From: Candidatus Absconditabacterales bacterium
GTDB taxonomy: Bacteria > Patescibacteriota > Gracilibacteria > Absconditabacterales > Absconditicoccaceae
Assembly: GCA_937958645.1 (NCBI GenBank)
Contig: CALGNI010000038.1
Coordinates: 3,647-67,646, forward strand
Length of the DNA stretch: 64,000 nt
Reading direction: 5' to 3'
The translations under genes were made by a program, and so were the position numbers. Below, piece by piece: positions 9,411 to 57,546 of this stretch (its first letter is position 1; every line of letters begins with the position of its first letter). Under the pieces are notes generated by a model. That model did no database searches. It saw only the letters and a list, made by a program, of their open reading frames with translations, and had not been told where the DNA came from.

Positions 9411-9950
9411 GCTAAGTAAAGCTAAAAGCTGAAAGCCAAAAGCTAAAATATATAGTTTAGTTAATAGTCATTCTTGTTATTGGAGCAAGGAGAAAGAAGA
9501 TTTGATTGAGATTGAACAAAAGAGCCTGTACTTTACAGTCTCTTTTTTTATATTCTAGTAAACAAGAGAGGAGTGTCCTAGTGTATTGGTATATTAGTAC
9601 ATTAACTCGCCTTTGCCTTCGGCATATATTCCTTGCAACTGATCACTTCGTCCCTTCGGTCCTAGTTCTCAGACAAGTAATTAACTTACTAATTCACTAA
9701 TATACTAATTTATCCAATTCACCTAATTTACCCAACTCGCCTAACTTGCCTAACTTGTCTTTACCTTCGATCCTAGTTCTCAGACAAGTAATTAATTTAC
9801 TAATATACTAATTTATCCAATTCACTAATTCACTAATTCACTAATTTACTAATTTATCTAATTCACCTAATTTACCCAATTTACTAATTCACTAATTCAC
9901 TAATCTACTAATTCACCTAATTTACCCAATTTACCCAACCTGTCTAAAAA
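9411..9950. repeat. composite repeat region upstream of mutL
   Basis: Contains 'aagctaaaagctgaaagccaaaagctaaaa' and an inverted copy of the 75-bp element at 9608-9684, with a partial copy at 9759-9797. Long degenerate 8-9-nt arrays 'ttcactaa / tttacccaa / ttcacctaa' span about 9684-9940. Confidence 0.8.
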
Positions 9951-9951
9951 A

Positions 9952-11781
9952 ATGATCAAAAAACTCCCCCAACACCTCATCAACAAACTCAAAGCTGGAG
10001 AAATCGTCGAGCGTCCTGTTTCTATCGTGAAGGAACTCGTGGAAAACTCGCTTGATGCCTGAGCTACGCAGATCAGCATGGAGATTTCTGCTTGAGGAAA
10101 AAAGTTGATTAAGATTCAAGATAATGGAACGGGGATGACCAAAGAAGACCTTCAGATGAGTGTGGAACGTTATGCAACATCCAAACTAGACGAGACAAGC
10201 GATATTGAGATGATCGAAAGTTATGGATTTAGGGGTGAGGCCTTAGCGAGTGTGAGTGAGGTGAGTATCTTTCGTATTCAGACTCGTCAAGCAGCAGAAA
10301 CTGAATCAGGGGTCTGATATGAGCTGTATCGCGCTGAAGGAAGATATGATATCAAGCAAATTCCGTTTGCTCGTGAGCATGGAACGACCGTCTTCGTAGA
10401 AGATGTGTTTCATCATATCCCAGCTCGTGAAAAATTCCTCAAATCTGATTCGACCGAACGAAATTATATCAAGAAAATGTTCTTACAATACGCCCTGGTG
10501 CATCGAGATAAAAAACGAGAGCTCCTCAAGGATGGAAAATCGATGTATAGCTTTCTCCCTGCCGATAGTCTCATGGAAAGAGTGCTTTCACTCACCAAGA
10601 AAGATCGAGAAAAAAATCTAAAAACCCTTGCCTATCAAGATAAGCAATTAGAAATATTTGGTGTAGCTGGAGACGCGAGTTTGCATTTTGCGACTGGCCA
10701 ATATTTTTGGTTGTTTGTGAATGGACGTCCTGTGCAAGATAGAGTCTTAAAGTCTGCTGTGATGGAGGCCTATAGAAGGCAGATCGTGCCAGGTAGTCAT
10801 CCTTTCGTGTGTCTTTTCCTGGAGATAGACCCGAGACAAGTAGATGTGAATGTTCATCCAAGAAAACTCGAAGTAAAATTCCTCGACCCATGAAGCGTGC
10901 ATACCCGCGTCAAAGAAACGATCCGTGAAGCAATAGGAAGTCAAAAAGTGAACTATGCTGCCTTCAATCAAGAAGCAGTGAGGAGTAGCTCTCATCCCAG
11001 CTCAGGTTCAGGGAAAAGATTCAATGCTGAGCAATATCGTCAACATCAGTCTGGATTAACAGAATCTCAAATTCAATGATTGAAGCAGGTATGATCGATG
11101 AAAAACTGAGCTGAAGCAATGATGTTTGGTGCCGCAGATATGGATAAGGTTCATCTGGGGCAAAGTCAGTTGTGAACTGAGCTTATGGTCGTGGGTGAGC
11201 AAGAATCATATACCCTGATTGGCCAACTCCGACAGAGTTATATCCTTCTCCAAGCACCCGATGCATTGGTCTATATTGACCAACATGCTTTAGCAGAAAG
11301 AATCGCTTTTGAACAAATGAAGAAAAAAATAACCGCTGATGGCTTTAGTTCTGAAGTGCTTCTTCAGCCCCTAAGTCTCGAGATCCCCAAAGACATAGAT
11401 ATTGATGAGAAGATTGAACTCTTATGAACGATAGGGTTTGATGCTTCGGTATTGAGTGAGCGGAAGCTTGTCATCTATTCAATTCCTCGTGTGTTTCATG
11501 AGTGGAAGGTGGATATAGAATTGATCATCAATCGAGTCTGGTGAGCCAAGCACAACGCCCAAGGTCCAGAACTTTTTGGTCTGATGGTGGATGAAATGGT
11601 AGGGATGAAAGCCTGCAAAGCCTCAATCAAAGCAGGTCAAAAGCTCAGTCCCCAAGAAATGAAACAGCTCGTCCAAGATGGATTTACCTATATCCCAGGA
11701 ATGTTCGTCTGTCAGCACGGAAGACCAAGCGCAGTAAGGATTGAGAAGGGGAATGTGGATGGGTTGTTTGAAAGGCATTAG
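9952..11781 (+). CDS. mutL: DNA mismatch repair protein MutL
   Basis: '[24 protein letters not shown]', 'IQDNGTGM', '[10 protein letters not shown]', '[12 protein letters not shown]', and C-terminal 'CQHGRPS'. Five track ORFs join in one frame through TGA. TAG stop. Confidence 0.95.
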
Positions 11782-11782
11782 A

Positions 11783-11944
11783 GAAGGAAGAATGAAGAAG
11801 GAAGAATAAAGAAGGAAGAATAAAGAAGGAAGAATAAAGAAGGAAGAATAAAGAAGGAAGAATAAAGAAGGAAGAATAAAGAAGGAAGAATAAAGAAGGA
11901 AGAATAAAGAAGGAAGAATAAAGAAGGAAGAATAAAGAAGGAAT
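11783..11944. repeat. 14-bp tandem repeat (gaaggaagaataaa), about 11.5 copies
   Basis: Unit starts fall every 14 nt from 11783 to 11937, immediately after the mutL stop. Track ORF 11623-11961(-) is just its translation. Confidence 0.95.
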
Positions 11945-12081
11945 ATTGTATTATGTGTCATCCTGAATGAGTTCGTAGCGTAGCGGAGAACGATTGAAGG
12001 ATCTCGAGTGGATACTATCCTTGCGAGATCCTTTTAGTTTTTAGCTTTCAACTTTCAACTTTAAATTTTTAACTTTAATTC

Positions 12082-21290: not shown

Positions 21291-21404
21291 AATAGAAAGT
21301 TAATTACTTGCCTATGAAACCAGAGCGAAGCGATAGGTTGAGTAGATGTAAGTGATATATGCCTCAGGTAAAAAAGTAAAAAATAGAAAAGAAAGAAAAG
21401 AAGC

Positions 21405-22974: not shown

Positions 22975-23613
22975 ATGAAAAATAGAAAATCGCCTCGCAA
23001 GAAATGATATGATTATACGTCCTCAGGAGCGTATTTTGTTACGATTAACACAAAAAATCGTAAACCCTTTTTTTGACGGATCATTAAGTCAGATGATCCC
23101 AAAAAAGAACAATATATGAGACTAAATTCATTATGAAAATGCTGTAAACAAAAAATTGAACAAATAAATACCAGAAAAAATGTTACCATAAATGAATGGG
23201 TAATCATGCCGGATCATATCCATATGATTGTGATATTGGCGGAATGGGATATAAATCGAAATGACAAAAAATCCACCATCATAAATAATAATCCTATGAA
23301 CCTATCGTTAAACAATAATCCTATGAACCTATCGTTAATAGGTCCTGGGCGTGATAATCAAAATCAAACGGAATTTTCGAATCAAACGCAGGACGGTTTA
23401 ACGAACCGTCCCTACGATTGACCAACGTTATGAAATATTATAAAATTATTCAAATGAAACGTATCTAAATACGCTAAACAAAATAATATATCATTTGCAC
23501 GACAATCACGTTATCACGATCATATCATCAGGAATCATAATGAATATCGTCGTATTCAATGGTATATCATCAATAATCCTAGACACCGAAAAGGTCTAAT
23601 AAAAACTGACTAA
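22975..23613 (+). CDS. REP-associated tyrosine transposase (RAYT; IS200/Y1_Tnp-like)
   Basis: 'KGYDYTSSGAYFVTINTKNR', 'WVIMPDHIHMIV' (HUH), 'SRYHDHIIRNHNEYRRIQWYIINNP' (catalytic Tyr region). It carries an internal 27-bp tandem duplication (NNNPMNLSL x2) and a REP hairpin at 23391-23416. Confidence 0.75.
23391..23416 (-). repeat. REP hairpin with GTAG head inside the RAYT CDS
   Basis: Minus strand reads cGTAGGGACGGTT-loop-AACCGTCC. Confidence 0.55.
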
Positions 23614-23635: not shown

Positions 23636-24634
23636 TTATTGCTCAAAATCAATCAAACCTGCACGAGGATTCTGAAGTAAAAACTCACGGGCTTTTGCGA
23701 CGCTTCCTGCGACTCATAGTAAGGTTTTTGCATGATCTGCTTTTATACCAAATTCTTTTACTAACATATCAATACCTCTCTGGTTTAGTTTGTTGTTTGA
23801 TAGTTTCATATAGATCATTTTGTTTCCCAGGGTTCTTTCAAGTTGCACCATAATTGATGTAGAGATTGCATTTAGAACAAGTTTTTGAGCAGTACCAGGA
23901 CTCATTCTTGAGCTTCATTCGATAAAGGCCTCACCAATATTTACCTCTATAGGATAGTCGACGTGCTTTCATAGTGGTGTTCATGGGGAAGTACTAATAC
24001 ATCATGTGAGAATGCCGTTTGCTTTGCAGTCTTTTACTCATCAGATGACATAAGGAGTAGTTCATGAGGCAGCCACTCAAATCACGATGTCTTTGTGTGT
24101 GATAGCATAGTTTTGTAAATCTTTTCGTGCTTGGGTGCTAACGTCTTCTGCATTTTCAACTGAATTTCTCAGAGCTTTATCTCATCAGGCAATGATTCAA
24201 ATCACGGTGTTAGCATCAACACCAAACGTAGGAGGGCATTCTGAGGCATCGAGCACTCCCAGACGTCAACTGGTCCCAGCACCGATAAAAACAAAGATCT
24301 AAAATTGGGCTCACTTCGCCGCAAGCAAACGGAGTATTTGCCCAATTTTTCTTCTCGTTCCTCGAAGACCGATCTTTGTTTTCGTTCGGAAGCCTTCGAA
24401 AGCAACACTATCATGAAGAAGTATGATATCTATTATTGCCTCGCACTAAAGTGACGAGGTAATATTCCGAATATAAAACAGTCTTCACCCAAGTTTCATT
24501 CTTCAACTAATAGCATCAATCAGTTCTCAAGCAGCTTTTGAGCATTTCCTCACTGCAGGAGCAATGAATAAGTCCTTATCATTGATGTGAAGAAAAAGTT
24601 CTTCTCAACTCATCGATGAATGAATTTCAGACAT
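23636..24634 (-). pseudogene. murQ: N-acetylmuramic acid 6-phosphate etherase (MurQ), ORF split by a 186-nt element
   Basis: The 5' part (24634-24473) ends '...KLGGRLFY'. The 3' part (24286-23636) starts '[23 protein letters not shown]' and contains 'GSSRMSPGTAQKLVLNAIST'. Removing 24287-24472 restores the SIS motif [14 protein letters not shown] in frame (813 nt). Read-through hits TAG after 8 codons. Confidence 0.8.
24287..24472 (-). mobile_element. structured roughly 180-nt insertion element, copy A (inside murQ)
   Basis: Homologous to 26721-26897(+) and 57313-57485(+). It has a 5' hairpin acctcgtcac/gtgcgagg and nested helices with compensatory changes between copies. Inserted at tAT|ATc with no target duplication. 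Confidence 0.75.
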
Positions 24635-25433: not shown

Positions 25434-26354
25434 ATGTTGATGAAAAATACTACACGACAAATGATCAAATCATCATGGACCCATATGCTTTCTCTGGTAG
25501 GAATCATTAGTTTTTTGTTGTTCTTTCTAAATTTGTTGATTATCTTATCGTACAATACAGGAGTCTTCAATGAAGATGTAAGAGAAAAATTATGAGTGTA
25601 TCTGTACTTGGATGATACAGAAGTCGCTAAAGACCTCATATATTCCGAAGCAATTGATATGAAATCAGAGTTGGAAGCAGCATGAATGACCGTTGATTTT
25701 TACTCGAAAGATGATGCATTTGAAATATTAGAAGAAAGATTACCGAATGTGATCGATAATTTTGAAAGATACGGTATTGATAATCCCTTACCGCCGACCT
25801 TGTATATCCAGTTTTCCAATGAACAAGATTATTCTCGTTTGAAAGACATCGTATTGAGTTATGAAGATGTGATTATAAATTTATCAGACTTAGAATCTTC
25901 CTGATTTACCTTTACTGAACAAGAGCGTAGATCAGCTAATGTGATCAACCTTACAAACTTTCTAAATCAGTTTAGTTATTTCCTTATCGCGATCGTTCTT
26001 GCGATTATTATTGCCTTTCTTCTATTTGGATTGAAAATTACCTTCTATCGCTTTCGAGAACAAATCGAAGTGGAGAAGCTGTTATGAGCAGGATATTTTC
26101 ATATCAAAAAGCCCTTCCTGATCATGTCAGCGATTGTGCTTTTGGTTGCATTTGGCCTTATGGTACTGTATTTCCTTGGGTTCTTTGCTGCATTGGATGG
26201 ATATGTGATGTCAGTATTTAGCGTCTCAGTATATGAATACCTCCTACCGCTCAACTTCATCCAAGAGTTTCTCACCCGAGAAGCATTGATTCTAGTATGT
26301 CTCGGGGTGTTGTTTTCTCGAGGGTTTTTGAGTAGGTTGATTAGGAGGGTGTAG
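25434..26354 (+). CDS. ftsX: cell division protein FtsX-like permease
   Basis: N-terminal TM segment, periplasmic domain 'DAFEILEERLPNVIDNF...PLPPTLYIQF', and three C-terminal TM segments. SD 'aaggagg' at 25410. Track ORFs 25686-25904 and 26124-26354 are in frame. Confidence 0.75.
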
Positions 26355-26356
26355 GT

Positions 26357-26506
26357 AAGTTAATTACTTGCCTATAAGCTAGGACCAAAGGGACGAAGTG
26401 ATCAGTTGCAAGGAATATATGCCGAAGGCAAAGGCAAGCTAGTTTGTATGTCATCCTGAACGTAGGGACATAATTTCTTATGTTCCGTAGTGAAGGATCT
26501 CGAGAG
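26357..26506 (+). repeat. 75-bp element copy plus GTAG-REP / 'gtcatcctgaa...gaaggatctcgag' element
   Basis: 26357-26436 is 'taattacttgcctataagctaggaccaaagggacgaagtgatcagttgcaaggaatatatgccgaaggcaaagg'. 26449-26506 contains GTAGGGACA-loop-TGTTCC. Confidence 0.8.
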
Positions 26507-26531: not shown

Positions 26532-26568
26532 AAAAAGATCTACCTAATAATCAGGTAGATCTTTTTTT
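26532..26568. terminator. bidirectional terminator
   Basis: agatctacct/aggtagatct 10-bp stem flanked by A5 and T7. Confidence 0.8.
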
Positions 26569-26962
26569 ACACAGTAAATTCTCTATTTATGATTCAGTCT
26601 TCATAGTCTGGATGCTTTTCATTAGTCTTAAGTGTTTTGTAAGCTTCACGTTGTTTATCTATTCTTGCCTTTGCCGCGTTTTTTGCGCAATCATCTCGAT
26701 ATTCAGAATGTCAGAAAGATATTCGGATCATTACCTCGTCACTTTAATTAGAAGCAATCAAAGAAAACCTACTTCTTCATGATTCATAATGAATTTGTCG
26801 ACATCCGAACGAAACAAAATATCGATTATTGAAGAATGAGATGAAAATTTAGGCGAATACCTCGTCGAGGTGAGTCTAAATTTAGATATTTTGTTTTATT
26901 AGATTTTTGGCAGCTTTGATTTTTAGAATAGAGTCTGGCTTTGTGCGCTTTTGGATTTTCAT
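26567..26962 (-). pseudogene. small ORF (72 aa if repaired) split by element copy C lying antisense
   Basis: 26962-26898 encodes 'MKIQKRTKPDSILKIKAAKNL'. Joining it to 26720-26567 gives an in-frame '...ISFGHSEYRDDCAKNAAKARIDKQREAYKTLKTNEKHPDYEDGIINREFTV', ending exactly at the terminator (219 nt total). Confidence 0.45.
26721..26897 (+). mobile_element. structured roughly 180-nt insertion element, copy C
   Basis: 'attcggatcattacctcgtcac...tacttcttcatgat...ccgaacgaaacaaaatatcg...aaaatttaggcgaatacctcgtcgaggtgagtctaaatttagatattttgtttt'. Inserted at gAT|ATt. Confidence 0.7.
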
Positions 26963-27004
26963 AGGTAATTTATATAAAGATAAAATTCTTCTTCCTTCTT
27001 CCTT

Positions 27005-28201
27005 CTAAACTCTACTTTCTATCACCCCACTCCCTACCAATTCATCACCATCGTACAAAACAACAATCTGTCCTGGTGAGATGGCGCGTTGGGGTGTGGT
27101 GAATGTTACGAGGTAGGATTGATTTGACTCATGCTGGGTTAATCCCTCTCAGTCCCCCTTTGAAAAGGGGTCTTTACGCTTGGGTTTGCCGTCGAACCCC
27201 TCTGTCTTTCACTGCGTTCAAGACATCTCCCCTAAGGGGAGACCATCAGATTGTTTTTCAATTTTTGTAATTTCACACTCTTGGTCTTCTTGTCTGTAAC
27301 GGATCTTGGCGTGGCCTTTCCGGGGAACTGAAGGAGTCTCTCATGAGGTCCACTGAATTTCTGATGCAATGAGTGAATCGTGCATAAGGTCTTTTTCTTG
27401 ATCTTTACTGACAGTGATCGTGTTTGAAGAGGTGTCTTTTGCAATTACATACCAAGGACCTCCACCGAGTCAGAGTCATGTTCTTTGACCAATAGTCACA
27501 AAGTGAGCTCATTCATGCTGTCAGAGGATTTTTCCTTCGGTATCAACTATGTTTCAGGGCTTTTTTGGCAAGGCTTCTTGAAGAAATTCTTTGATGGGCA
27601 CCTTTCCGATGAAACATAGTCATTGGCTGTCTTTGCGATCTGCATTGGGAAGTTTGATTTCTTGAGCGATCTTTCTTACTTCATCTTTGGTGAGTTCTCC
27701 CAGAGGAAATAAAGAGGATGCTAATTGCTCTTGGTTTAGTCCTGAGAGAAAATATGACTGATCTTTGTTGTGATCGATTCATTTTAAGAGTAATTTTTTT
27801 CAATCATGTTCTGAGATTCTTGCATAATGGCCTGTAGCGACGTAATCACAGTTGAGTTTTTTTGCTTCATCCAAAAAAAGTTTGAATTTAACTTCGCTGT
27901 TACATAAGACATCAGGATTTGGGGTAAGGCCTTTTTCATAGCCATCATAGATGTACTGGATGATGGTTTGATGGTATTGTTCACGAAAGTCAAAGATGAT
28001 AAATGTCTTGATTCATAGGTGTTTTGCAACTTTTAGTGCCATATCTCTATCTTGTCTGGTATGACAGTGGGGATTTTCTTCTTCAGCATAGTTTTTCATA
28101 AATCCCGCAATGACCTCATATCATTGGGTTTGCAAAAGATGTGCTGACACCGCAGAGTCAACTCATCAAGATAATCATAAGAGGACGCGTTTTTTTTTCA
28201 T
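27005..28201 (-). CDS. mnmA: tRNA-specific 2-thiouridylase MnmA, with an in-frame GC-rich insert
   Basis: PP-loop 'VLLGLSGGVDSAV' (both G of SGG are TGA, about 28161-28166), '[12 protein letters not shown]', 'ATGHYAR', 'KDQSYFL', 'DSQGLCFIG', 'PQRAISPGQ'. Length 1197 nt. TAG stop. Confidence 0.9.
27130..27250. repeat. GC-rich palindromic element embedded in frame in mnmA
   Basis: 'tccctctcagtccccctttgaaaaggggtc...acatctcccctaaggggagacc', with hairpins tctcccc/ggggaga and cccctttt/aaaagggg. Translated as about '[41 protein letters not shown]'. Confidence 0.7.
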
Positions 28202-28204
28202 AAG

Positions 28205-28390
28205 GTGAATTAGGCAAGTTGGGTAAATTAGACAAGTTAATTACTTGCCTGAGAACTAGGACCGAAGGGACGAAGTGATCAGCTGCAAGGAATATATGCC
28301 GAAGGCAAAGGTAAATTAATTACTTGCCTGAGAACTAGGACCGAAGGGACCAGCTGCAAGGAATATATGCCGAAGGCAAAGGCAAGTAAT
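28205..28390 (+). repeat. octamer array plus two tandem copies of the 75-bp element
   Basis: Copies lie at about 28237-28311 and 28312-28382. The second lacks 'gaagtgat'. Confidence 0.85.
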
Positions 28391-28416
28391 TATTTAACGA
28401 TTATATCATTATTGCT

Positions 28417-33886: not shown

Positions 33887-33952
33887 GTCAATATCTACAT
33901 TACTAATATGCTGATGTAAGGAGTAAAGGAGAGTAGCATTCTCTCTGAATTT
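33887..33952 (+). repeat. roughly 65-nt structured direct repeat (copy 1)
   Basis: 'gtcaatatctacattactaatatgctgatgtaaggagtaaaggagagtagcattctctctgaatt'. Nearly identical to 35437-35500. Its first 16 nt also occur at about 6803-6820. Confidence 0.8.
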
Positions 33953-34132: not shown

Positions 34133-35392
34133 ATGTCTCTTTTGAAAAGTGGATTTGCTATCATTCTTATTTTTACCTCCTTATCATTATGAGCTGCATT
34201 TGCTACATCCCATGATATTGAAGATCTATATATAGATGGAGAGTTAGTTCCTCAGAGTATTTTAGATACATTTGAACATATTAATCCATGACACTTAGAT
34301 GGAAATAGTTGAGTACAGAATTATGGTTACCGAAAAGATGAAAATAATGTATATATTCATGATGGTCACACTCAAGATTGATCCCCTCAATATTATACTT
34401 TACCAAATGTTGATCCAGATACGTTTGAAATCATAGAATTAGAAATAAAACCTGAAAATCTTTGGAGAGCATACTATGATATGTACACTACTTGGTGAGT
34501 GTCAATAGGATATACTAAAGATGCATCACACGTGTATTACAAAAACAAGCTTATTCCCAAAGCTGATCCATTGACTTATAAAACTCTTCTATGAGGGTAT
34601 TTTATAGACAAAGATAGCGTCTACTCTCATAATGATGATATGCCTAGCCGTCTAATACATGTAGATGTAGATACGTTTGAAGTGTTGTGAGTAGATGAAT
34701 TATGAGAAGAGTGGGAAACTTCGAGTTGGTTTTATGGTAAATATTATGCTCGTGATAAGAATAATTTATTCTACAAAGGAAATATTGTTCAATGAGCTGA
34801 TCCAGATGACTTTACAAAACTGAATGATTTTGGTTATTATGTTAGTAATGATTTTGTTTTGCACCACTGAAGGGTGATTCCTTGAGTTAGCGAATCAGAT
34901 TTTTCCACGCAAAACTACATAGTCCCTTTAGCTCCTGAGGAGCCTGTCAAAGGAACTTCTCCTGATGGAATTGCTTTGTCTCTTCCATGAGCCGATACTA
35001 CAAAAAACTATTGATTCTATGTCTTTAACAATAAGATATTCACGCCTCACTGAAAAGTTGTTAGCTTTCTTCATACAAACAAATTGAAACTTCATGAGCT
35101 ATGAATTACTGATGACAATATGTTTTATATTGAGTACTACCATACATATGGTCAATTTTCTTCTTATCGTGAACATTTTAAGATAAAGTTTCTTCCCAAA
35201 CATGCAGATGTGATTGATCTTTATATGAAAGAGAGTGTAGCATCTAGGATGACAGTGGAAACATTGGTAAAGAAACTTGAATTATATAAAGAAAGTAGAC
35301 CAGAGGACTATATGGAATGATGAACGAATGATGTACTAATATGGGCACTAGTAGATCATGTATTGGAAAATGGATATACGTATTATCAGTAG
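34133..35392 (+). CDS. DKNYY-domain secreted protein
   Basis: Signal peptide 'LLKSGFAIILIFTSLSLGAAFA'. Repeated 'D.SHVYYKNK', 'DKDSVYSH', 'DKNNLFYKGN' motifs. Track ORF 35120-35320 is in frame. TAG at 35390. Confidence 0.7.
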
Positions 35393-35436: not shown

Positions 35437-35500
35437 TCAGTATCTACATTACTAATATGCTGATGTAAGGAGTAAAGAAGAGAAGCATTCTCTTTGAGTT
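35437..35500 (+). repeat. roughly 65-nt structured direct repeat (copy 2)
   Basis: 'tcagtatctacattactaatatgctgatgtaaggagtaaagaagagaagcattctctttgagtt'. Its second hairpin differs from copy 1 by a compensatory G-C to A-T change. Confidence 0.8.
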
Positions 35501-40006: not shown

Positions 40007-40762
40007 TTATATTTCTTTTGTATGATTCCGAATAAATTCAAACAAACTATATATGCTTTGATACATATTTTGATTTTCAATTATAAGAACATGAGGAGTG
40101 TTAGATCAATCAAAAAACAAAAATGATATTTTATTTGGTCAGTAAAGATTTATATCAGCATTTATATCAAAGGGGAGTTTGTCGATAAGTTTAGATTCTC
40201 TGTTGTGTTCTTTATCTTTGTCTTTTAGTTCTTGAATATTGGTATTATGTTGCGACAATATCCTATATGTTTTCAATTTATTCTTTTTTCTGGCTCTTCT
40301 GTAAACTCATACATGCTGTAACAACTTCTCATCAAAGTACTTAGGCGTTCATAGAATTGATCTCATATCTACAGTGCTGTTAGCGAAATCTTGAAACAAC
40401 TTTTCTAATCAAGAAGATCATTCTAGGTAAGTAACTTTAGGTTTTGATCACTTGGTACTTGAGAGCTCCAGCAATAGAGGGACAATCTCTTTGAATCATT
40501 CGGTTTTGCTCTCAATGTGCTTGAGAAGCAACTCGGGAGATACCACAGAAAAAAATGAAATATCTTTTCTTTTTAATTCTTGAATGGTTCATTCTCAAGT
40601 TAGTTTTTTTAGTAGAGCATATACCGTGGTTCTTTTTTCTTCTGCATGTCTTGCGACCGTACTCGCTGGTGCACTTCACAATTCCAAAACTGTCAGGTAG
40701 ATCTTTGCCTCCTTTTCGCTCATTCATCGATCTTTTAGTGCTCAGATAAGGTTGTCTTGCAT
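40007..40762 (-). CDS. TrmB-family transcriptional regulator
   Basis: 'GMSEKEAKIYLTVLELGSAPASTVARHAEEKRTTVYALLKKLTGEGTIQE' is wHTH. The C-terminal domain is similar to 56332-57138 and 57547-58287. Track ORF 40512-40727 is an out-of-frame artefact. Confidence 0.7.
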
Positions 40763-40939
40763 GACTAAAGTGATGGTAAATACTTCACTAAGTATACCTG
40801 TATCTAGAAAAAATAGCAAAAAAACCATGGCCTGTTGCTATTTCCTAACAACACATACCACACTCAGGCTATTGACAAATTGATTTAAATAATTATTATA
40901 TAAACACTTCTCGATGTTGAGAAGTGCTAAAACAAAAAT

Positions 40940-47537: not shown

Positions 47538-47641
47538 GAGAATTGATGAATGATTAAAAATAACACAAAGGTTCGTCGAAACTAACTTCTTCGAAGCATA
47601 TGTCCATTCATCAGTCTCGGGCCCGATCCTGATATCTTAAC

Positions 47642-47673
47642 AAAAAAAACCTCCTGTAATTGTTACAGAAGGG
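47642..47673 (-). promoter_or_regulatory. terminator hairpin in the 5' leader of the 47537-45509 operon (candidate attenuator)
   Basis: Minus strand reads cccttctgtaa-caa-ttacaggagg followed by T8, about 105 nt upstream of ATG 47537. An upstream segment 'acagaggggagg' could compete for the 5' arm. It overlaps a 15-codon uORF (METFLLKQRGGFLMM). Confidence 0.4.
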
Positions 47674-47943
47674 TTTGAATGATTATTGTGATGAGTGTAA
47701 CTTACTTAATTACATCATCAGAAAACCTCCCCTCTGTTTGAGAAGAAATGTCTCCATGAAAATGAATTAATTAGATTAGTCATCAGAACAATAAACTAAA
47801 TGTTAAGATACATTATGTATACATGATTCTATTCTTGGTTTCAAGGGGAAATGTAAGCGACTTTGATAAGCGGCTTATTTTCCTCTTGCAAAATAATTTT
47901 CTATCAGTAATAATAAAATGTTTTACTGAAGTAATACACTAAT

Positions 47944-48204
47944 ATGTTATTTCCAGAATCATTGAAATTAGTTACTGATACACTTTGGCGCATCAAAAAG
48001 GAAGATCTAGATTGAAGTCTAGAAGATCTTTTTACACCTTCAGAAATTATAGAGATCGCTGATAGAATACTAATATTAAAAGCCCTCAAGGAAGGGAAAA
48101 AACAAAGAGCCATTGCTGAAGAGCTATGATTATCGGTTACTACTGTTAGTAAAGGATCTAGAGTGTTGAAGTATGGGAGAAGAAAAATAGAGAAAGTGCT
48201 CTAA
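47944..48204 (+). CDS. Trp repressor family protein (YerC/YecD-like)
   Basis: 'TPSEIIEIADRILILKALKEGKKQRAIAEELGLSVTTVSKGSRVLKYG' matches the TrpR/YerC HTH pattern. 86 aa. Confidence 0.65.
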
Positions 48205-48270
48205 AAATTTTACCCGCATGTTTTAGTGTAGTAATACGATTTGATTATTTTTTTATAAAATATTTTAAAG

Positions 48271-49236
48271 ATGAAAAATACACCATATATTGAAAACGCT
48301 CATATAAATATTGAGCAAGAGTTTAGATTGCTTAATGATTCATGAGAACTTGTTATAGAAAAAGATGGGATGAGTTTGCCAGAGTATATTCACTATTCGA
48401 TAAAGCTAAAACCTGAATTAACTTTATTGTTGAAGCAATGATACATCCAAATACACCCAGAATTTAATAAAGATCAGTTTGAAGTTGCAAGCTATGGGAA
48501 GAATAGTTTTTCATCAGTGAAAGATATTATGCTTACGACATATACTTGATTGTCTGAAGTGCTCGCTGAGCAGTGAGAAACCATAGATTTACGTGTACTT
48601 CCACCTGAAGGACCCGCGATATGACATACTGAATATAAACCCTATTATCCATTGTTAGCTAAGAAAGTAATAGAACAAACTGGTGATAGTAATTCGATTA
48701 AGAAATTTGATATTACTTCATGTCAGTTCAATATTGATGATCCTGAGTTGACTCTGTATAGAGCAATTGCAGATGATTTTCATCAGCACGGATTTTTTAA
48801 TTCGAAGTATGGCTCTTTGAGATCGCCACATAGAGCAAAGATTTTCAAAGATATTATTGATAGAATTACAGAAACCTGAATGATATCTTGAGGAATTTAC
48901 CCTCCATATCTTGAGTGAGTCACACTAGAAGAACCTTGATTTCTACCATTTATGCCCCCAAGTTCCTATGATAGAATGTTACGTAATGATGAACTACTAA
49001 AGTATTTTCTTGATTGACCAAATACTCAACATTATTTAGAAATTAAAAGCAGCGACATTAACAATTCAGGACATTACCTTGAAATCAAACCCTTTGATTT
49101 ATGAGTAGAAAATCATGGACTAATTGAATCTGGGGACTGAAGTGAGATTATTTCAAAAAGATATGATACAATTTACAAATATTTAATTGATACTCATGAT
49201 GAATATGATAACAGAATACCTCAATCTGAGATCTAG
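48271..49236 (+). CDS. divergent carboxylate-amine ligase-like protein (GCS2-like, tentative)
   Basis: 'IEQEFRLLNDSGELV', 'IHPEFNKDQFEVAS', 'LEIKPFD' loosely follow YbdK/GCS2 motifs. Track ORF 48652-48879 is in frame. Confidence 0.4.
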
Positions 49237-49268
49237 TACATTAAAAGTTTTATTAAAAGATACTTTCC

Positions 49269-50078
49269 ATGATATACCCAAGAATAGAAACTATTAACTC
49301 TTGAGTCCCTTGACCTACCACAACAATTATCTGAGGAATTCATGGGAATGAACCAACGTGATTTGAGTTGATTCAGATGCTAAAAGATTCGTTATGTATT
49401 GATGCTGGAGTAGTAACACTAATCTCAGCTCATCATGAGGCAAAAGAAAAGAATGCAAGATTCATCGATAAAGATCTTAATAGAAGTTTTGGTAAGAGCG
49501 TAGACGAGACCATTGAGTCTCGTCTTGCTCAACTCATATCTCCATATATCACAAAGGCTAACTATGTACTTGATGTCCACAATACAGTAAAAAACTCCTC
49601 ACCGAGATTTTGTATTAGTGAACATGAGGAGTTTGCGCAGTTTATTGGTATTCCTTTTTATGTTTGATGATGCTGAGAGAAATTTATGTGAAGTACCGAT
49701 CAATTTGCCGATCGTGAGTGAGCAAAGTGATTTTGTCTGGAAGCTTGATGGATTCATGAGAGTAAAGACCACACTCAGTTTGCTTACGATTCGAGTATTA
49801 ATCTTTTGAAGTCTTTTGGTAACATAGAATGAGATCCGAACAATTATTGATCAAGCAAGAAGTTGGTAATGGATATAATGTATCACGCTACCTGAAATTA
49901 TGAAAGTAAACGTGAGTTTGCTGATTTCGATCCAGTAAAGGCAGGGGAAATGATTTGAGTTGATGAAGATAGACCGATCATGGCAACTGAAGATTGATTT
50001 ATCTTATTTTCCAGCATGGAAGCAAGAAGAGGTGAGTTGGGCTTTATGTTTTTGAAGGAGAGGGGTAATTCTAAATAG
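49269..50078 (+). CDS. succinylglutamate desuccinylase/aspartoacylase (AstE/AspA, M14-like) family deacylase 1
   Basis: 'IIGGIHGNEPTG', 'IDKDLNRSF', 'VLDVHNT'. Track ORF 49368-49667 is in frame. Confidence 0.7.
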
Positions 50079-50251
50079 TGAAGCTGAGTACACTTGAGAA
50101 TTAAAGTAAACTCATAGTACTTGATAAGTTAATGTTGTGTTAGTTTTTGCTGTTATTATTTTTAACAACAGATAATATATTATGTTATTGATTTTATGTT
50201 CTTTATATAAATAAATTCTAAGTCTAGTTATTTTATTCTCTTCTATTAAAA

Positions 50252-51961
50252 ATGCTCAATAATTCAAAAAATAACATCTTATGAAAGTATAAAAAGTATT
50301 TTCTAGAAGAATGAGAATGAAATGCTAGTGATGTAAAAAAATATTTTGATGGACTTTATGATAGAGTTTTTTCCAAGTTTCAAGAATGAAATCAAGCGTT
50401 AATGAAGAAAAATGATAATCAATCATTGCGTTATATTGATAGTATAAAAGATGAAACCTTCCCTGAAAAAGGATTAAACATTGATGAGGTCTTAGAAAAA
50501 ACAAGTAAGGCATTTTGATGAGCATTGAGACGACATTCAACTCAAACCGCGTATAACGTTTGACCTAGTCCAATTCTTCCTACTGTTGGTGTGAATGCAG
50601 TAGTAAACTTATTTAATCCTAACTGTTTAATGGATGAGGTTTGTTGAGACTTTATGGTGACTGAAAAAAAAGTAGTCAAATTTTTGAGTGATATCGCGTG
50701 AATAGATTACAATAAATCAGACTGAATGTCTACTTATTGATGAGCATGAACTTTAATGTATGCTATCAAGACTAGCCTTTGAAAGGTCTCTAGTACATCA
50801 TTTTCACAATGAATCCGTAATGATTATTACGTACTTACTTGAGAATCAAATCATTATTTTATCACAAATATATGCTGATTTCTTTGAATTTGAACAGATC
50901 AATGTATTAGGATACCTTCAATAGATCATGGAATTATGGATTTAGTAGAATTAAGATCAGTCTATGAATCCCTGCTTAAGGAAGATAAGAAGGTGATTTG
51001 TATAATAGCTAATTGATGAGAGACTATTAATCATGCAATTGATGATTTATCAGAAATAACAAAAATAATCGACAACCTCACTAAAATATATGAATCAAAC
51101 AGGCCCCATTTACATTTAGATAGTGTAAATTGACGATGTTGGTTAACATTTCAGTGATATGATTTCGAAGAAAATCAATTAAAGATCAATGAAATAGATT
51201 TAAGTAAAATTCGTAAAGCCTATACCTTACTTTCTAAAGTATACCTTGCTGACTCTTTTTCAGCAGATTTTCATAAAACATGACTATGTCCTTATACCTC
51301 AGCTTTTTATCTTGTTAAAAATTTTGAAGATTTAAAGCATATTCAATGAATTGAAAGTTATAAGAAGGATATTTCTCGATGAGAAGGAATTAATTTAAAA
51401 ACATCTATAGAGCATTCTAGATCTTGAACATGAATATTAAGTGCATATGTTTCAATATTAACAATGTGAAAAGAATGATTTCAAGCGTACTTGAGTACTT
51501 TATTCAATAGTTGAAGGAATATCAAGAACGTAATTTTAAATAAATATCCTGATAAGATTGAAATTGTAAATAAATTGTGAAATCGATTTGTTAATATTAT
51601 TGTACTTAAATTCTTTAACAATCAGCCTGAATTTGAAGATCTATGTAGGTCTAGCGATGAAATCAAATTGAAATACAATCAATTTGCTCGTTGATACTAT
51701 GAATTTTGTCTGTCTAAAGTTAGAGAATGAAATTCAATGTACCCATATTTATGATACATTAGTAATTATACACATTTAGGAGAAAAAACCTGATTGGTCA
51801 CTTTTAAGATCTATGGAATGTCAGTTAACTACACCAATAAAGATTATACTTATTTTGTGAAATCAGTGGTTCATTCGTTAAACGAATACAAGAAAACAAT
51901 GGCTAAATGATCAAATCGCAAGACTATGCTTACCAAAGAAAAAAGGCATACTTTAAAGTAA
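50252..51961 (+). CDS. group II PLP-dependent decarboxylase (aromatic amino acid/Tyr/Glu decarboxylase-like)
   Basis: 569-aa table-25 ORF with about 38 TGA. PLP-lysine motif 'SADFHKTGLCPY', and 'YGGAGTLMYAIK'. TAA at 51959. Confidence 0.7.
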
Positions 51962-51995
51962 AGGAGTAGTGCTATTTTAAATCTTATGACATAAT

Positions 51996-52766
51996 ATGGA
52001 TAAGATTATAGAATTTTATTGAACAAGATCTAAGAATGAGGTTGGTATTCTAAATACAGTTCTAGATGATCTGAATGAACTCTTAGTAAATGTTGATAGA
52101 TGAAATTCTCACAATATTTCATGTATATTATATTGATCTTTAGCAACCTATGACCAAACGAAAAATTCCGATATTGACGTAATGTTTATGAAGAACGGAA
52201 AATCATCTAAGGAATTGTTTGATCAATTGAAATGATGACTGATAGATATTTCAAAAAAAAACAAACTAGAAGTTGATGAAGAAGTCCCGTTCAAGAGTAA
52301 GTTGATATTCAGTCATAACGAAATTTTAGAGTCTTTGTTAGCAAAATGATTTCCAAACATAGATTGAAAAATAGAAGTTCCAAATATCATTTCAACTAAG
52401 GATCTTAGAAAAAAATCCACAAAAATTAGATTATGAACCAACATTATAACCACGCCAAATATTTGAATTTTCCATTCAGTAAGTGAAAAAGAATTTTATG
52501 ATCAAATAAAGTATAGATGATGATTGCTCTTACAAAGCTTGGCTAGAAACCTCTTTACACAAAATTTTAAAAATCAAAAGATCACTCAGAATGACCTTCT
52601 TGAAGTGTTGGCTACTAGCAATTGAAATGAATGAAGGAAGCATCTCTGATATAAAATTGAAAGGCCTTTTGTAAGAAAATATTTAGTTAACTTATTGGAA
52701 AAAAAGTACTCCAATCAGGAGTTAGATAGCATGGAAAATAGTTTATGAAGTCAAATATTTTTATAA
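51996..52766 (+). CDS. nucleotidyltransferase (Pol-beta superfamily) domain protein
   Basis: 'ILYGSLATYDQTKNSDIDVMF' matches the GS...D.D NTase motif. Confidence 0.55.
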
Positions 52767-52779
52767 TATACTTAAATTT

Positions 52780-53595
52780 ATGAAAATTAATTTACAAATA
52801 CTTTGATCTTGATGATCAATCCCTACGCCTAGAATATGATCAAAGAGTGAAATATCAAAATTGGCAAGAGAAGTCTGACATCCATATAAGAAGAACTCAA
52901 GCTGTCTGTGAATTCCTGAAATTCATGCACTTATTGATTGTCCCGAAGATATATCTGATTCATTAAATAAAATAGACTTTCCTAATGTAAAGCACTTATT
53001 CTTAACACATTGGCATCCTGATCATACATTTTGATTAAGAGTGTTGCTTTCAAGCGTATTCGATCCAATAGATAAGAAAATTGATGAGCCAATACAACTT
53101 TACTTTCCAAAAAAAGTTTATCAAGATTTAAGACAACATTACCCTTCAATTGATTATTTTGTTGATGAAATGTGATTTTGAGTTGTGAATTTCCTAGAGC
53201 ATTGAGAATCAGTAAATATTTGATGAGTTAGCATCACAACTATATGATATTCATGAGAATGATCATGGGTAAATTGATATTTAATTGAGTCAAACTGAAA
53301 GCGTGCTTTATATTCACCTTGTGAGACAATTTTATTCGAACAATTTGAAATTAATGATTTGGATATACTTATTACTGAGTGTTGAGTTTTTTCTTTTGAT
53401 AAGGTGAAAACTGAAATATCTTTTCCAAAAATGATCAAAAATATAGAGAGATTACAGCCAAAAAAAACGTATATAACCCATATTGAGGAAGTTGAATTAG
53501 CGAGATGGGGGTATGATTACTTGCAAGAAATGAAGGAAAAATATTCAGATATTCCTTTCGAATTCGCTTTAGATTGACTAAAAATAGACTTATAA
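52780..53595 (+). CDS. MBL-fold metallo-hydrolase
   Basis: 'ILGSGGSIPTP', 'LFLTHWHPDHTFGL' (HxHxDH). Confidence 0.7.
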
Positions 53596-53596
53596 C

Positions 53597-54955
53597 ATGT
53601 CAAAAAGTGTAACTATAGTCTGATGGGGAACAAGTGCAGCGATAGCTGCATTGAATTACTACAATGAATGATATAACATTGAAGTTTATACTAAGTGACC
53701 AGAACCTACGTTAGACAATATTTCATCATCGGATATTGACTTTTATGCTTCATCAATGACTTGATGAACTGATATTCAGCGTTTTATAACTTGAATTGAG
53801 TGAAATCCATGGAATTTTTGTGCTTTTAGTTCACACCAATGCGAAGACTGGTCTAAGATGTGGAAAACTACAATTTCCGAATGATGATGGTTAGAAAAAG
53901 AGGCCTCGCTTTATTCTAAAAAGATGCAAAATAAAATTAAAAATAGAGCTTTATTTTACAATAAAATGTGAATTGAAGAGCAAACTACTAACTATAATAA
54001 ATGGATTATTAAAAATAAGGAAAGTTTATCATTACGAAAAAAATGTATCATTGACTCACCAGAGCTATTTAAATGAACTGAAATACAGTGATTTGATTCT
54101 GGTGTGTTAAAACTCTTTTTGAATCAGAAATATTTTGAAAAAACATATTTCAAGTTCAAGAGACTTGATCTTTTAGCTAAAAAATTGACGTTTAAAAGTA
54201 TCGTAAACTGACATGAGATGTTTTGATTTCGAGAAAAATGAATAAATATATCTAAATTTACTTATCTATTGGTAAAGATTAAAGACCTTTTAATGTCAAA
54301 TTGAGTAAAATTTTATTTTGACAATGAAATTAAAAGCATTTCCTTAAATCGTAAAAAAATTATTGAATGAATAGTGTTGAGTTCATGAGAGGTAGTTCAT
54401 AATCAAAATTTTTCATTTCATTTGTGAGCTTATAATTCTAGTTCAAAAATTAATGCAGAGTTACAAGACATTGTTCCAGTTTGATGATTGTGGTCAATTG
54501 TTGAGATAGGAGACGAAGTCGATCCATTCTATCTTAAACATCCAATGAAACTTCACACGACTAAAGAAGGAGATATCTTCTGACGAGATATTAATATTTC
54601 CAGGATAGATCATCCAAATAAAAATTTATTTCTAGCATGATATTGATATATCGTGAGTGAGCATGCATGAAAACAGAACAGTGATATTGAATTTGCAAAA
54701 ACTAGACTTCATTCTCGATTTGAAACGGAGATTTGTAGACGGTTTAAGAAGAAAGATATTAAATCTATCAAACACATAGAAAATATTTGTTATAGGTCAT
54801 TTACACCAACGGACAGAGAGACATTATATGCATATGAAACATGAAAGTGATGAAAAGCAATATTCTGCTCAGGTTGAAATACTTGAAGCACTACAATTAG
54901 TTTTAAAGATGCAAAACTATGTATTGACATATTGAATAATAAAGTTAAGAACTAA
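53597..54955 (+). CDS. FAD-dependent oxidoreductase (DAO/amine-oxidase-like)
   Basis: N-terminal dinucleotide fold 'VTIVGWGTSAAIAALNYYNEGYNIEVY'. C-terminal 'FCSGGNTGSTTIS'. The start lies 1 nt after the MBL stop codon. Confidence 0.55.
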
Positions 54956-54980
54956 TTACTTTTATCTTTAAGTGTATCTC

Positions 54981-56291: not shown

Positions 56292-56331
56292 AAACGATTT
56301 TTAGTTTGTCTTTAGTGTTAACATAGATTGA

Positions 56332-57138: not shown

Positions 57139-57214
57139 AGCGCTCAAGTAGTTGTTATATGAGATCGTTGACTATTCTGTATGTGCTTTTTTGAATTGAT
57201 TTGAACAACTTCTT

Positions 57215-57485
57215 TTATTGCGTCGCACTGAAGTGATGAGGTAATATTCCGAATATATATTAAATCAGAAATATCAAAACTTTTTTATAAGTTATATATG
57301 ACTAAATAATTCTACTTCTTCGTGATAGTAATGCTTTCCCAGACTTTCGAACGAAAACAAAGGTCTATCTTCGAGGAACGAGAAGAAAAATTGGGCGAAT
57401 AGTTTCATTTCATGAAACCGCTAATCAAAGATTAGTACTCCGTTCGCTTGCGACGGAGCAAGTCCAATCTTAGATTTTTGTTTTT
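57215..57485 (+). mobile_element. structured element copy B (rearranged, intergenic)
   Basis: The core 57313-57485 aligns with copies A and C and carries an extra hairpin insert. The 5' hairpin module (57215-57255) is present but inverted and displaced by about 57 nt. Confidence 0.65.
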
Positions 57486-57546
57486 ACTTCATTGCAAATT
57501 TGAGTATCTATTATATAGATATGTTGCGATTTATAACAGTCATATT

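What the first reader, a model, noticed from the sequence alone, without database searches (positions are those of the whole stretch)
26567..26962. Roughly 180-nt element family with compensatory base changes, inserting at ATAT in either orientation
Copies A (24287-24472, minus), C (26721-26897, plus) and B (core 57313-57485, plus) share a 5' hairpin, a conserved 'tacttcttc(a/g)tgat' and two nested long-range helices. The helix sequences differ between copies but stay complementary. Helix 1 is aaaacaaagatc/gatctttgtttt in A, aaacaaaatatc/gatattttgttt in C, and aaaacaaaggtct/agatttttgtttt with G.U pairs in B. Helix 2 is attgggc/gcccaat in A, tttaggc/gtctaaa in C and attgggc/gtccaat in B. Each copy also has an apical hairpin of different sequence. 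Copy C splits a second ORF: removing exactly 26721-26897 fuses 'MKIQKRTKPDSILKIKAAKNL' in frame to 'ISFGHSEYRDDC...REFTV', which ends right at a terminator. Here the element is antisense to the host ORF, which argues against a self-splicing intron. It favours a DNA-level, TSD-less, hairpin-dependent (IS200/IS605/PATE-like or RAYT-mobilised) non-autonomous element. The conserved structure may act in ssDNA or as an RNA. I do not recognise this as a described family.
Basis: partly seen in the sequence, partly recalled or inferred. Interest (0 to 1): 0.8.

Follow-up and report, generated by a model that had tools for sequence, protein, structure and literature searches.

The report
Small structured mobile DNA element family
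A roughly 180-base, gene-less mobile DNA element in a Gracilibacteria-type genome (TGA read as glycine) has landed next to ATAT in two genes and one intergenic site, and it keeps a conserved single-strand fold; it is a new family of an already known kind of element.

Summary
Three copies exist: A 24285-24470 (-), C 26723-26899 (+) and B about 57300-57487 (+). I also found a solo 5' module, X, at 57211-57252 (-). The copies share invariant motifs and nested helices: 9 of 52 pairs changed on both sides, against 3.3 in shuffles and 0-1 in slid controls. G.U pairs favour one strand.

The window uses TGA as a sense codon (Gly), so it is Gracilibacteria-like.

Copy A splits murQ in sense orientation at [12 protein letters not shown]. 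A close relative has the intact gene, which is a precise empty site. Copy C splits, antisense, a 72-aa ORF with gene-like codon usage but no homologues. All four left ends follow ATAT. There are no terminal inverted repeats, and any duplication is at most 3 bp (TAT).

The only recombinase gene in the window is a RAYT-like Y1/HUH transposase, 670 bp from copy A. It too is missing at that spot in the relative.

No copy was found anywhere else, so statistics rest on three sequences.

Best reading: a lineage-specific non-autonomous element, mobilised in trans as single-stranded DNA, comparable to IS200/IS605 PATEs and B. cereus bcr1. An omegaRNA role or RNA-level removal is not excluded. It is a new member of a known kind, of moderate interest.

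The parts
24285..24470 (-). Copy A, complete (186 nt). P1 24465-24471/24385-24391; 5' hairpin H1 24439-24459; invariant motif 24410-24423; helix 1 24371-24383/24287-24299; small hairpin 24350-24368; helix 2 24340-24349/24301-24310; apical hairpin H3 24312-24336.
26723..26899 (+). Copy C (177 nt). P1 26722-26728/26803-26809 with a compensated A-U to U-A change; H1 26734-26754 broken; motif 26770-26783; helix 1 26811-26823/26885-26897; small hairpin 26826-26844; helix 2 26845-26854/26874-26883; short H3 26858-26872.
57300..57487 (+). Copy B. It is truncated at the 5' end (no P1 5' strand, no H1). The motif starts at 57313. The 3' domain is intact, with G.U pairs and a 36-nt insertion carrying two extra hairpins in the apical region. 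It ends in TTTTTAC.
57211..57252 (-). X, a solo 5' module (left end plus H1 with two mismatches), 91% identical to A's. It lies head-to-head with B across a shared ATATAT.
   Evidence: (D17)
24471..24634 (-). murQ 5' part (MSEIHSS...GGRLFY), ending in the target TATAT.
23636..24284 (-). murQ 3' part ((I)[21 protein letters not shown]... to the stop codon). It is in frame with the 5' part once copy A is removed.
26900..26962 (-). 5' part of the 72-aa orphan ORF (MKIQKRTKPDSILKIKAAKNL).
26567..26722 (-). 3' part of the 72-aa orphan ORF (ISFGHSEY...REFTV plus stop codon). The source's gene caller calls it as a 54-aa fragment that starts inside the element (P0241).
26532..26566 (.). Bidirectional terminator hairpin (16-bp stem) shared by the FtsX-like gene and the orphan ORF.
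22975..23613 (+). RAYT-like Y1/HUH transposase gene (212 aa, six in-frame TGA codons). It has the HUH motif HIH and the RYHDHIIRN...WYIINNP motif. It is the candidate trans-acting mobiliser.

Best explanation
These are copies of a lineage-specific, non-autonomous mobile DNA element of 177-186 bp with no coding capacity.

It integrates immediately 3' of ATAT. It has no terminal inverted repeats and leaves at most a 3-bp repeat. It can land in either orientation, inside genes or between them.

One strand folds into two adjacent closed domains:
- P1 pairs the extreme left end with the segment just before domain 2.
- Helix 1 pairs the start of domain 2 with the last bases before the right end.
As a result both termini sit at the foot of one junction.

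I infer that this fold is what the mobilising enzyme needs, on single-stranded DNA. I infer that the enzyme is a Y1/HUH transposase supplied in trans. The RAYT-like gene at 22975-23613 is the only candidate in view. The mechanism would be IS200/IS605-style 'peel-and-paste', which excises precisely and could therefore restore murQ.

Shown: the repeat family, the fold conserved by compensatory changes, the strand asymmetry, the precise insertion with an empty site in a relative, the ATAT context, and the absence of terminal inverted repeats.

Inferred: the single-stranded DNA intermediate, the identity of the transposase, and present-day activity.
For: - Three copies plus one fragment lie in 64 kb.
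- An independent Logan assembly contig (L119), 100% identical to window 47541-57397, ends inside copy B, as expected where a repeat collapses an assembly.
- The empty site is intact in relative L117. murQ dN/dS is 0.12, within the neighbouring genes' range of 0.04-0.17, so the insertion is recent or reversible.
- Copy C is antisense in an ORF whose codon score of 0.207 equals the mean of true genes and exceeds all 193 spurious ORFs.
- ATAT precedes four of four left ends, and the TATAT is already present in the empty site.
- Structure: 93% of cells are paired, and 9 pairs changed on both sides against 3.3 expected.
- In the 3' domain there are 14 G.U cells against 3 A.C cells. That domain folds better than its reverse complement in all three copies.
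- The Y1_Tnp / REP_Tyr_transpos match, the closest solved structure 4er8 (TnpA-REP), and the HUH and Tyr motifs are all present.
- The tail of the relative's contig lacks the end of that gene at the same spot.
- No other transposase, TnpB, IscB, IS110-type or serine recombinase was found among the 41 window proteins scanned.
Against: - The RAYT-like gene is not flanked by element ends. It scores below NCBIfam's equivalog cut-off (62.6 against 80 bits), so its role is a guess.
- The left-end and right-end hairpins are only weakly alike (p about 0.01 for C; not significant for A or B).
- Copies lie two on each strand although GC skew is uniform, so there is no lagging-strand bias of the kind reported for IS608 and ISDra2 (n = 4).
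- A 3-bp TAT duplication cannot be excluded.
- No copies were found outside this genome, so nothing shows ongoing mobility.
- Quasi-palindrome correction at the DNA level could mimic some of the 'compensatory' changes.
Confidence: 0.55

Rival explanations
1. The same mobile element, but the conserved 3' domain (about 100-135 nt, running to within 2-3 nt of the right end) is a guide-RNA scaffold (omegaRNA) for a TnpB- or IscB-type nuclease encoded elsewhere in the genome. The guide would continue into the right flank, and the nuclease would cut empty ATAT-plus-flank sites to preserve the element.
For: The structure is strand-specific and kept by compensatory changes. It abuts the right end. The 3' domain stays intact in B and C although their 5' parts are lost or broken. 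PATEs are reported to 'often encode omegaRNAs' acted on in trans (PMC10055086). The size fits known scaffolds (my own knowledge).
Against: No tnpB or iscB was found among the 41 window proteins scanned. There is no Rfam hit, including HEARO. No expression data exist. The rest of the genome could not be searched.
Confidence: 0.2
2. The element is removed at the RNA level when it is in sense orientation. This would be either a new compact self-splicing ribozyme or host-assisted removal, making it an IStron-like 'stealth' transposon without a group I core. murQ would then remain functional.
For: - Copy A is in sense orientation at the most conserved motif of murQ, and both halves of the gene are intact with dN/dS 0.12.
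- The fold places both junctions at the foot of adjacent helices.
- G.U bias favours the transcribed strand.
- B and C point the same way as the upstream genes.
Against: - In every possible register there is no terminal G and no GUGYG...AY, and neither group I nor group II introns match in Rfam.
- No internal guide covaries with the differing flanks.
- C is antisense in an ORF with gene-like codon usage.
- B lacks the 5' domain.
- Such an RNA has no precedent.
Confidence: 0.05
3. The element is mobilised as double-stranded DNA by a site-specific (serine or tyrosine, IS607-like) recombinase, or by a DDE enzyme. TAT or AT would be the crossover core or a 2-3 bp duplication, and the fold would be incidental or regulatory.
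For: TAT occurs at both junctions of A and C. IS607-type elements also lack terminal inverted repeats and share a core dinucleotide with the target (10.1101/2023.11.20.567912).
Against: No such enzyme gene is in the window. There are no terminal inverted repeats for a DDE enzyme. B ends in TAC, not TAT. Strand-specific G.U conservation would be unexplained.
Confidence: 0.12
4. It is primarily a host-useful structured RNA module, such as a 3'-end stabiliser, terminator or small RNA. On this view it spread by recombination, and the two gene disruptions are accidents.
For: B sits between two co-oriented TrmB genes, and C sits downstream of the FtsX-like gene. The 3' domain is conserved where the 5' parts decay. 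The analogous bcr1 repeats are transcribed (PMC3184786).
Against: The insertions into murQ and the orphan ORF are precise, and the relative has an empty site. The ATAT junction is shared. The terminator scan does not flag the element.
Confidence: 0.08

Closest known systems
PATEs (palindrome-associated transposable elements), the non-autonomous derivatives of IS200/IS605
   Same: They are short and have no ORF. They lack terminal inverted repeats and a long duplication. They insert next to a short fixed motif at the left end, carry sub-terminal hairpins on one strand, and depend on a Y1/HUH transposase in trans. They often carry a structured RNA at the right end (PMC10055086).
   Different: No autonomous IS with the same ends is known. 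The only Y1 gene nearby is RAYT-like and is not flanked by the ends. The two ends are not clearly alike. There is no strand bias. The fold ties both termini into one junction, which has not been described for PATEs as far as I know.
bcr1 (group A repeats of the Bacillus cereus group)
   Same: bcr1 is about 155 bp, mobile and non-autonomous, with a variable distribution between strains. It has AT-rich T-T-A-T ends. Its predicted RNA has two independent stem-loop domains kept by compensatory changes (PMC3184786; PMC6542083).
   Different: The sequence and the host phylum are unrelated. bcr1 has 5-bp TTTAT direct repeats; here the empty site rules out a 5-bp duplication. The mobiliser of bcr1 is also unknown.
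REP/REPIN elements with RAYT transposases
   Same: The neighbouring gene is closest to REP-associated tyrosine transposases. The elements are hairpin-rich and have no ORF.
   Different: REPs are 20-40 nt palindromes tagged with GTAG or CGTC. They are mostly extragenic, arranged as inverted doublets, and flank the RAYT gene (PMC3733652). None of that holds here.
IStrons and their ORF-less derivatives
   Same: They are transposons whose DNA boundaries coincide with RNA-level removal, so that sense insertions in genes are tolerated (10.1101/2023.11.20.567912).
   Different: IStrons contain a recognisable group I intron several hundred nt long. This element has no group I hallmarks and no Rfam match.

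Membership tests
IS200/IS605-derived PATE | No terminal inverted repeats | tested here: met
   The left end is TCGGAATATTACC. The reverse complement of the right end is ATAAAAACAAAGA. They show no complementarity.
IS200/IS605-derived PATE | Insertion 3' of a short conserved motif abutting the left end | tested here: met
   ATAT precedes A, C, X and the B junction. TATAT is present in the empty site of L117.
IS200/IS605-derived PATE | No target-site duplication | tested here: inconclusive
   The empty site excludes a duplication of 4 bp or more. TAT occurs at both junctions of A and C, so 0-3 bp remains possible.
IS200/IS605-derived PATE | Similar sub-terminal hairpins at both ends on the same strand | tested here: inconclusive
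   H1 lies 12 nt from the left end and is intact only in A. TACYYCGTY starts both H1 and H3 (6 hits against 1.3 expected). Local alignment is significant only for C (p = 0.012).
IS200/IS605-derived PATE | An autonomous partner encoding TnpA(Y1) bounded by the same ends | tested here: not met
   Tested within the window only. The Y1 gene at 22975-23613 has plain terminators on both sides and no element ends. The rest of the genome could not be searched.
IS200/IS605-derived PATE | Orientation bias relative to replication | tested here: inconclusive
   Two copies lie on each strand with uniformly positive GC skew. Four copies are too few to judge.
REP/REPIN-RAYT system | 20-40 nt palindromes with a GTAG or CGTC tag, as inverted doublets, extragenic, flanking the RAYT gene | tested here: not met
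   The element is 177-186 nt with five or six helices. Two copies are inside ORFs, and none flanks the RAYT-like gene.
REP/REPIN-RAYT system | Presence of a RAYT-type Y1 transposase | tested here: inconclusive
   NF047646 scores 62.6 bits, below the 80-bit cut-off. Pfam Y1_Tnp scores 24.9 bits, above its 23-bit cut-off. The best PDB match is 4er8, at E = 0.01.
DDE-type MITE | Terminal inverted repeats plus a fixed-length duplication | tested here: not met
   There are no terminal inverted repeats, and any duplication is at most 3 bp.
Group I intron | 3'-terminal G, a U.G pair at the 5' splice site in P1, and a P3-P9 core | tested here: not met
   None of the four possible registers ends in G. 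No Intron_gpI match appears even at E up to 10.
Group II intron | 5' GUGYG, 3' AY, and domain V | tested here: not met
   All are absent from the sequence, and there is no Rfam match.
TnpB/IscB omegaRNA | A structured scaffold abutting a transposon end, and a cognate nuclease gene in the genome | not testable with these tools
   The scaffold-like domain abuts the right end. No nuclease gene lies in the window. The rest of the MAG could not be reached.
bcr1-type repeats | 5-bp TTTAT direct repeats and sequence similarity to the bcr1 consensus | tested here: not met
   The empty site shows no 5-bp duplication. Sequence similarity to the bcr1 consensus was not tested, because that sequence was not held.

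The most novel reading that the evidence does not exclude
The fold that brings both junctions together may serve RNA-level removal of sense-oriented copies. This could be a previously unknown compact ribozyme or a host-assisted splice. The element would then be a 'stealth' transposon whose DNA boundaries equal its RNA splice sites, an IStron analogue of about 180 nt without a group I core. murQ would stay functional despite the insertion.
Probability: 0.05. Interest if true: 0.9.

Novelty: new member of a known kind. Interest (0 to 1): 0.4.

Why it matters
Mobile elements are little described in Gracilibacteria and their relatives, which have very small genomes and a reassigned stop codon.

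This family gives a clean case: a precise insertion, an empty site in a relative, and a fold kept by compensatory changes. It could be used to ask what a RAYT-like transposase actually moves. It could also show whether tiny elements carry guide-RNA-like scaffolds in these lineages.

Practically, the element breaks assemblies and splits gene calls. Here murQ and a small ORF are annotated as fragments. Both effects matter for annotating MAGs.

Tried and rejected
1. Public-collection scans.
- The strict pattern in the metagenome collection gave three chance hits in GC-rich contigs.
- Three viral scans gave nothing.

2. Other searches for copies.
- A six-frame peptide query made from the three copies found nothing among 5.8 billion proteins, even at E up to 10.
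- blastn against phages and plasmids gave no match.
- nhmmer and covariance model R1 on about 78 kb from Gracilibacteria relatives (L117, L120-L123) found no copy.

3. Reaching the rest of the source contig.
- The L1 protein and P0241 are not on record.

4. Interpretations considered and rejected.
- A peptide encoded from the conserved ATG/GTG in TTC(A/G)TGAT. The frame is open in A but stops early in B and is shifted in C, and the substitutions follow the helices, not codons.
- An IS110-type bridge RNA. The flanks share only ATAT, and there is no DEDD recombinase.
- A split-MurQ rescue. No in-frame start codon lies before the GAGTSG loop.
- A decayed 5' module upstream of B. The alignment is not better than shuffles.
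- A Helitron- or IS91-like element. The 'A|T' register fits, but there is no CTRR end.
- A pseudoknot between UUCUUC and the small-hairpin loop GARGAA. It is possible in all three copies but has roughly a 0.1 chance expectation, so I do not claim it.

Full report
**Genetic code and host**

Under the standard bacterial code the window has almost no long ORFs. ORFs of at least 150 codons total 10 kb under code 11, but 75 kb when TGA is read through. In MurQ the invariant glycines of [15 protein letters not shown] are TGA codons. TGA therefore means Gly (code 25).

The nearest PheS homologues, apart from the genome's own copy, are 'Candidatus Gracilibacteria' MAG proteins at about 60% identity.

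The window's own PheS (P0121, with W written at TGA) is on record from an 84,159-bp NCBI/ENA contig and from a Logan contig of run ERR9287619. All protein work below uses code-25 translations made in Python.

Yes. The three copies align over their whole length at 71-75% mean column identity. The 14-nt motif TACTTCTTC(A/G)TGAT and the motif YCGAACGAAAMMAAA each occur exactly three times, always in these copies. The repeat finder and nhmmer recover the same three copies with E-values of 1e-46 to 1e-64.

It is a 42-47 nt copy of the 5' module, 91% identical to A's, lying inverted 55 nt upstream of B (D17, 39).

An independent assembly contig (L119) is 100% identical to window 47541-57397 and stops inside copy B. 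That is what a genomic repeat does to an assembler.

**Anatomy** (coordinates)

The element is 177-186 nt. On the strand as oriented it contains, in order:
- P1: 7 bp pairing nucleotides 0-6 at the left end (TTCGGAA) with TTCCGAA about 80 nt downstream.
- H1: hairpin CCTCGTCAC...GTGCGAGG, 12 nt from the left end.
- An invariant unpaired stretch, TACTTCTTCRTGAT.
- An invariant CCGAACGAAA.
- A 3' domain made of helix 1 (13 bp), a 5-bp side hairpin, helix 2 (10 bp) and an apical hairpin H3 of variable sequence. B carries a 36-nt insertion with two extra hairpins there.

Helix 1 ends 2-3 nt before the right end, and P1 ends one nucleotide before helix 1 starts. The fold therefore brings both termini to one junction.

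Across the three copies 93% of cells pair. Nine pairs changed on both sides: 3 in helix 1, 2 in helix 2, 2 in H3, 1 in the side hairpin and 1 in P1. Column shuffles give 3.3 +/- 1.4 (0 of 500 reach 9), and slid partners give 0-1.

In the 3' domain I count 14 G.U cells against 3 A.C cells from the pair table. That domain also folds better than its reverse complement in every copy: A -34.8 against -31.9, C -26.7 against -16.1, and B -43.5 against -36.9 kcal/mol. The constraint therefore acts on one strand, either RNA or single-stranded DNA. Three sequences cannot give a formal covariation test, and quasi-palindrome correction could contribute to the pattern.

The parts decay unevenly. In C, H1 has four uncompensated changes while the 74 paired bases of its 3' domain are essentially all paired. 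X has two H1 mismatches. B has no recognisable 5' domain.

**Insertion sites**

Copy A sits in murQ, in sense orientation, between GRLFY and IGAGTSG. Removing it restores a 270-aa MurQ with SIS-domain matches.

A relative's MurQ (P0001) is uninterrupted. It is 86% identical as stored, with TGA written as W, and 91% identical in a code-25 alignment. It lies on ENA contig L117, which is syntenic over FtsW, DUF212, MnmA, the FtsX-like gene, the TPR gene and murQ. Its sequence at the site is ...CTGTTTTATATTGGTGCT.... This is a precise empty site.

The empty site shows three things:
- TATAT belongs to the target, not to the element.
- No duplication of 4 bp or more was made.
- The junction register is ambiguous by the TAT present at both ends.

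murQ dN/dS against the relative is 0.12 (dS 0.46), within the range of its neighbours (0.04-0.17). The gene has therefore not drifted for long as a pseudogene.

Copy C sits antisense in a 72-aa ORF that is restored in frame by removing the element. The restored ORF scores 0.207 bits per codon on a codon model trained on window genes. That equals the true-gene mean (0.20 +/- 0.08) and exceeds all 193 spurious ORFs of at least 60 codons (maximum 0.145).

However, an exhaustive HMMER search with the ORF's TGA-free 38-residue centre found only two hits. One is the genome's own 54-aa fragment call, and the other is a low-complexity hit. The relative has 9-nt tandem repeats at the syntenic place instead of this ORF. 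It is therefore a plausible orphan gene, not a proven one.

B lies between two co-oriented TrmB-family genes. X and B face each other across ATATAT, as expected if a palindromic target was used once on each strand.

All four left ends follow ATAT. The right ends are TTTTTAT (A and C) or TTTTTAC (B). There are no terminal inverted repeats.

**Surroundings**

I scanned 41 window proteins in Pfam. The only recombinase-like gene is at 22975-23613, 670 bp from copy A.
- Pfam: Y1_Tnp, 24.9 bits (cut-off 23).
- NCBIfam: REP-associated tyrosine transposase, 62.6 bits (cut-off 80), against IS200 at 20 bits.
- Closest solved structure: E. coli TnpA-REP, 4er8.
- The HUH motif (HIH) and the RYHDHIIRN...WYIINNP region align with it.

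The gene's flanks are ordinary terminators, not element ends. Its codon score is low (0.054). The 141 nt after the murQ terminator in the relative do not encode its C-terminus. The gene therefore appears to be a lineage-specific arrival, as the element copies are.

GC skew is positive across the whole window, yet two pieces lie on each strand. No TnpB, IscB, IS110-type or serine recombinase gene is present.

**Distribution**

Nothing related turned up in any of these searches:
- Rfam, at the gathering threshold and at E up to 10.
- Phage and plasmid collections.
- IMG/VR.
- JGI metagenomes with an exact two-anchor pattern.
- 5.8 billion predicted proteins, searched with six-frame peptides.
- About 78 kb from Gracilibacteria relatives.

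My one scan of the GTDB genomes was wasted on too loose a pattern. Absence from other genomes is therefore not established.

**Mechanism**

The evidence shows a mobile DNA insertion that is site-selective (ATAT), lacks terminal inverted repeats and is essentially scarless. One strand is under structural selection.

The established class with these properties is the IS200/IS605 'peel-and-paste' family and its PATE derivatives. These are moved as single-stranded DNA by Y1/HUH transposases and often carry an omegaRNA at the right end (PMC10055086). The neighbouring RAYT-like Y1 gene fits that class of enzyme.

I therefore take trans-mobilisation by a Y1/HUH enzyme as the most likely mechanism (confidence 0.55). 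The fold would serve to present both ends.

Three sub-hypotheses remain open:
- The 3' domain doubles as an omegaRNA-like scaffold (0.2).
- The element is moved by a recombinase using TAT as the crossover core (0.12).
- The element is mainly a host RNA module (0.08).

An intron-like reading is attractive because of the sense insertion at the conserved MurQ loop and the junction-closing fold. But it has no group I or group II hallmark in any register, and it conflicts with the antisense copy C and the truncated copy B (0.05).

**Comparison and novelty**

The closest described things are PATEs and the bcr1 repeats of the Bacillus cereus group. bcr1 is about 155 bp, mobile, has T-T-A-T ends, and has a two-domain RNA kept by compensatory changes (PMC3184786, PMC6542083).

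Classical REP/REPIN features are not met (PMC3733652).

This is a new family in an unusual host, but of a known kind. Its interest lies in being a tidy test case for RAYT-like enzymes and for small structured transposons in code-25 bacteria. It also has a practical effect on assembly and gene calling.

Noticed in passing
whole window: TGA is a sense codon, with up to 37 per gene. Conserved MurQ glycines are encoded by TGA, so the code is 25 (Gly) rather than 4 (Trp). Public gene calls for this genome (P0121, P0241, and P0001 of the relative) translate TGA as W.
   Followed up: yes
9601-9687 (-), 21292-21384, 26352-26444, 28229-28321, 28300-28392: A second, unrelated repeat family of about 90 nt sits at gene ends. 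Its consensus fold has 22 pairs, 6 of which changed on both sides. One copy lies 280 nt upstream of copy C.
   Followed up: partly
9698-9956; L117 4360-4510: Arrays of 9-nt units (AATTCACCT / AATTTACCC). In the relative, such an array fills the interval where the window has the 72-aa ORF, copy C and a 90-nt repeat.
   Followed up: partly
11737-11985; 26986-27020: A 14-nt tandem array (GAAGGAAGAATAAA, about 13 copies) lies after mutL. A short run of the same GAAGGAAGAA motif follows MnmA, next to the orphan ORF.
   Followed up: no
22975-23613: The RAYT-like gene carries an internal low-complexity insertion with a tandem NNNPMNLSL duplication. Its codon score is low (0.054, against 0.20 for typical genes). 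Its end is absent from the same position in relative L117.
   Followed up: partly
33888-33951 and 35437-35500: 64-nt direct repeats (92% identical) flank the DKNYY-family gene at 34133-35392.
   Followed up: no
L119 (= window 47541-57397): The Logan assembly contig of run ERR9287619 ends at window position 57397, inside copy B. The element breaks short-read assemblies.
   Followed up: yes
40007-40828, 56332-57138, 57550-58287: There are three TrmB-family regulator paralogues. Copy B and fragment X lie between the last two.
   Followed up: no
24410-24423, 26770-26783, 57313-57326: The variable base of the invariant motif TTC(A/G)TGAT makes ATG or GTG, both start codons. An ORF is open in A, but the reading frame is not conserved in C and stops early in B. 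I judged it non-coding.
   Followed up: yes
L118 10001-11179 (unrelated ENA contig): A 392-aa MurQ homologue (P0002) contains an exact internal duplication of about 120 residues. This is either an assembly artefact or a real tandem duplication. It is not related to the element.
   Followed up: no
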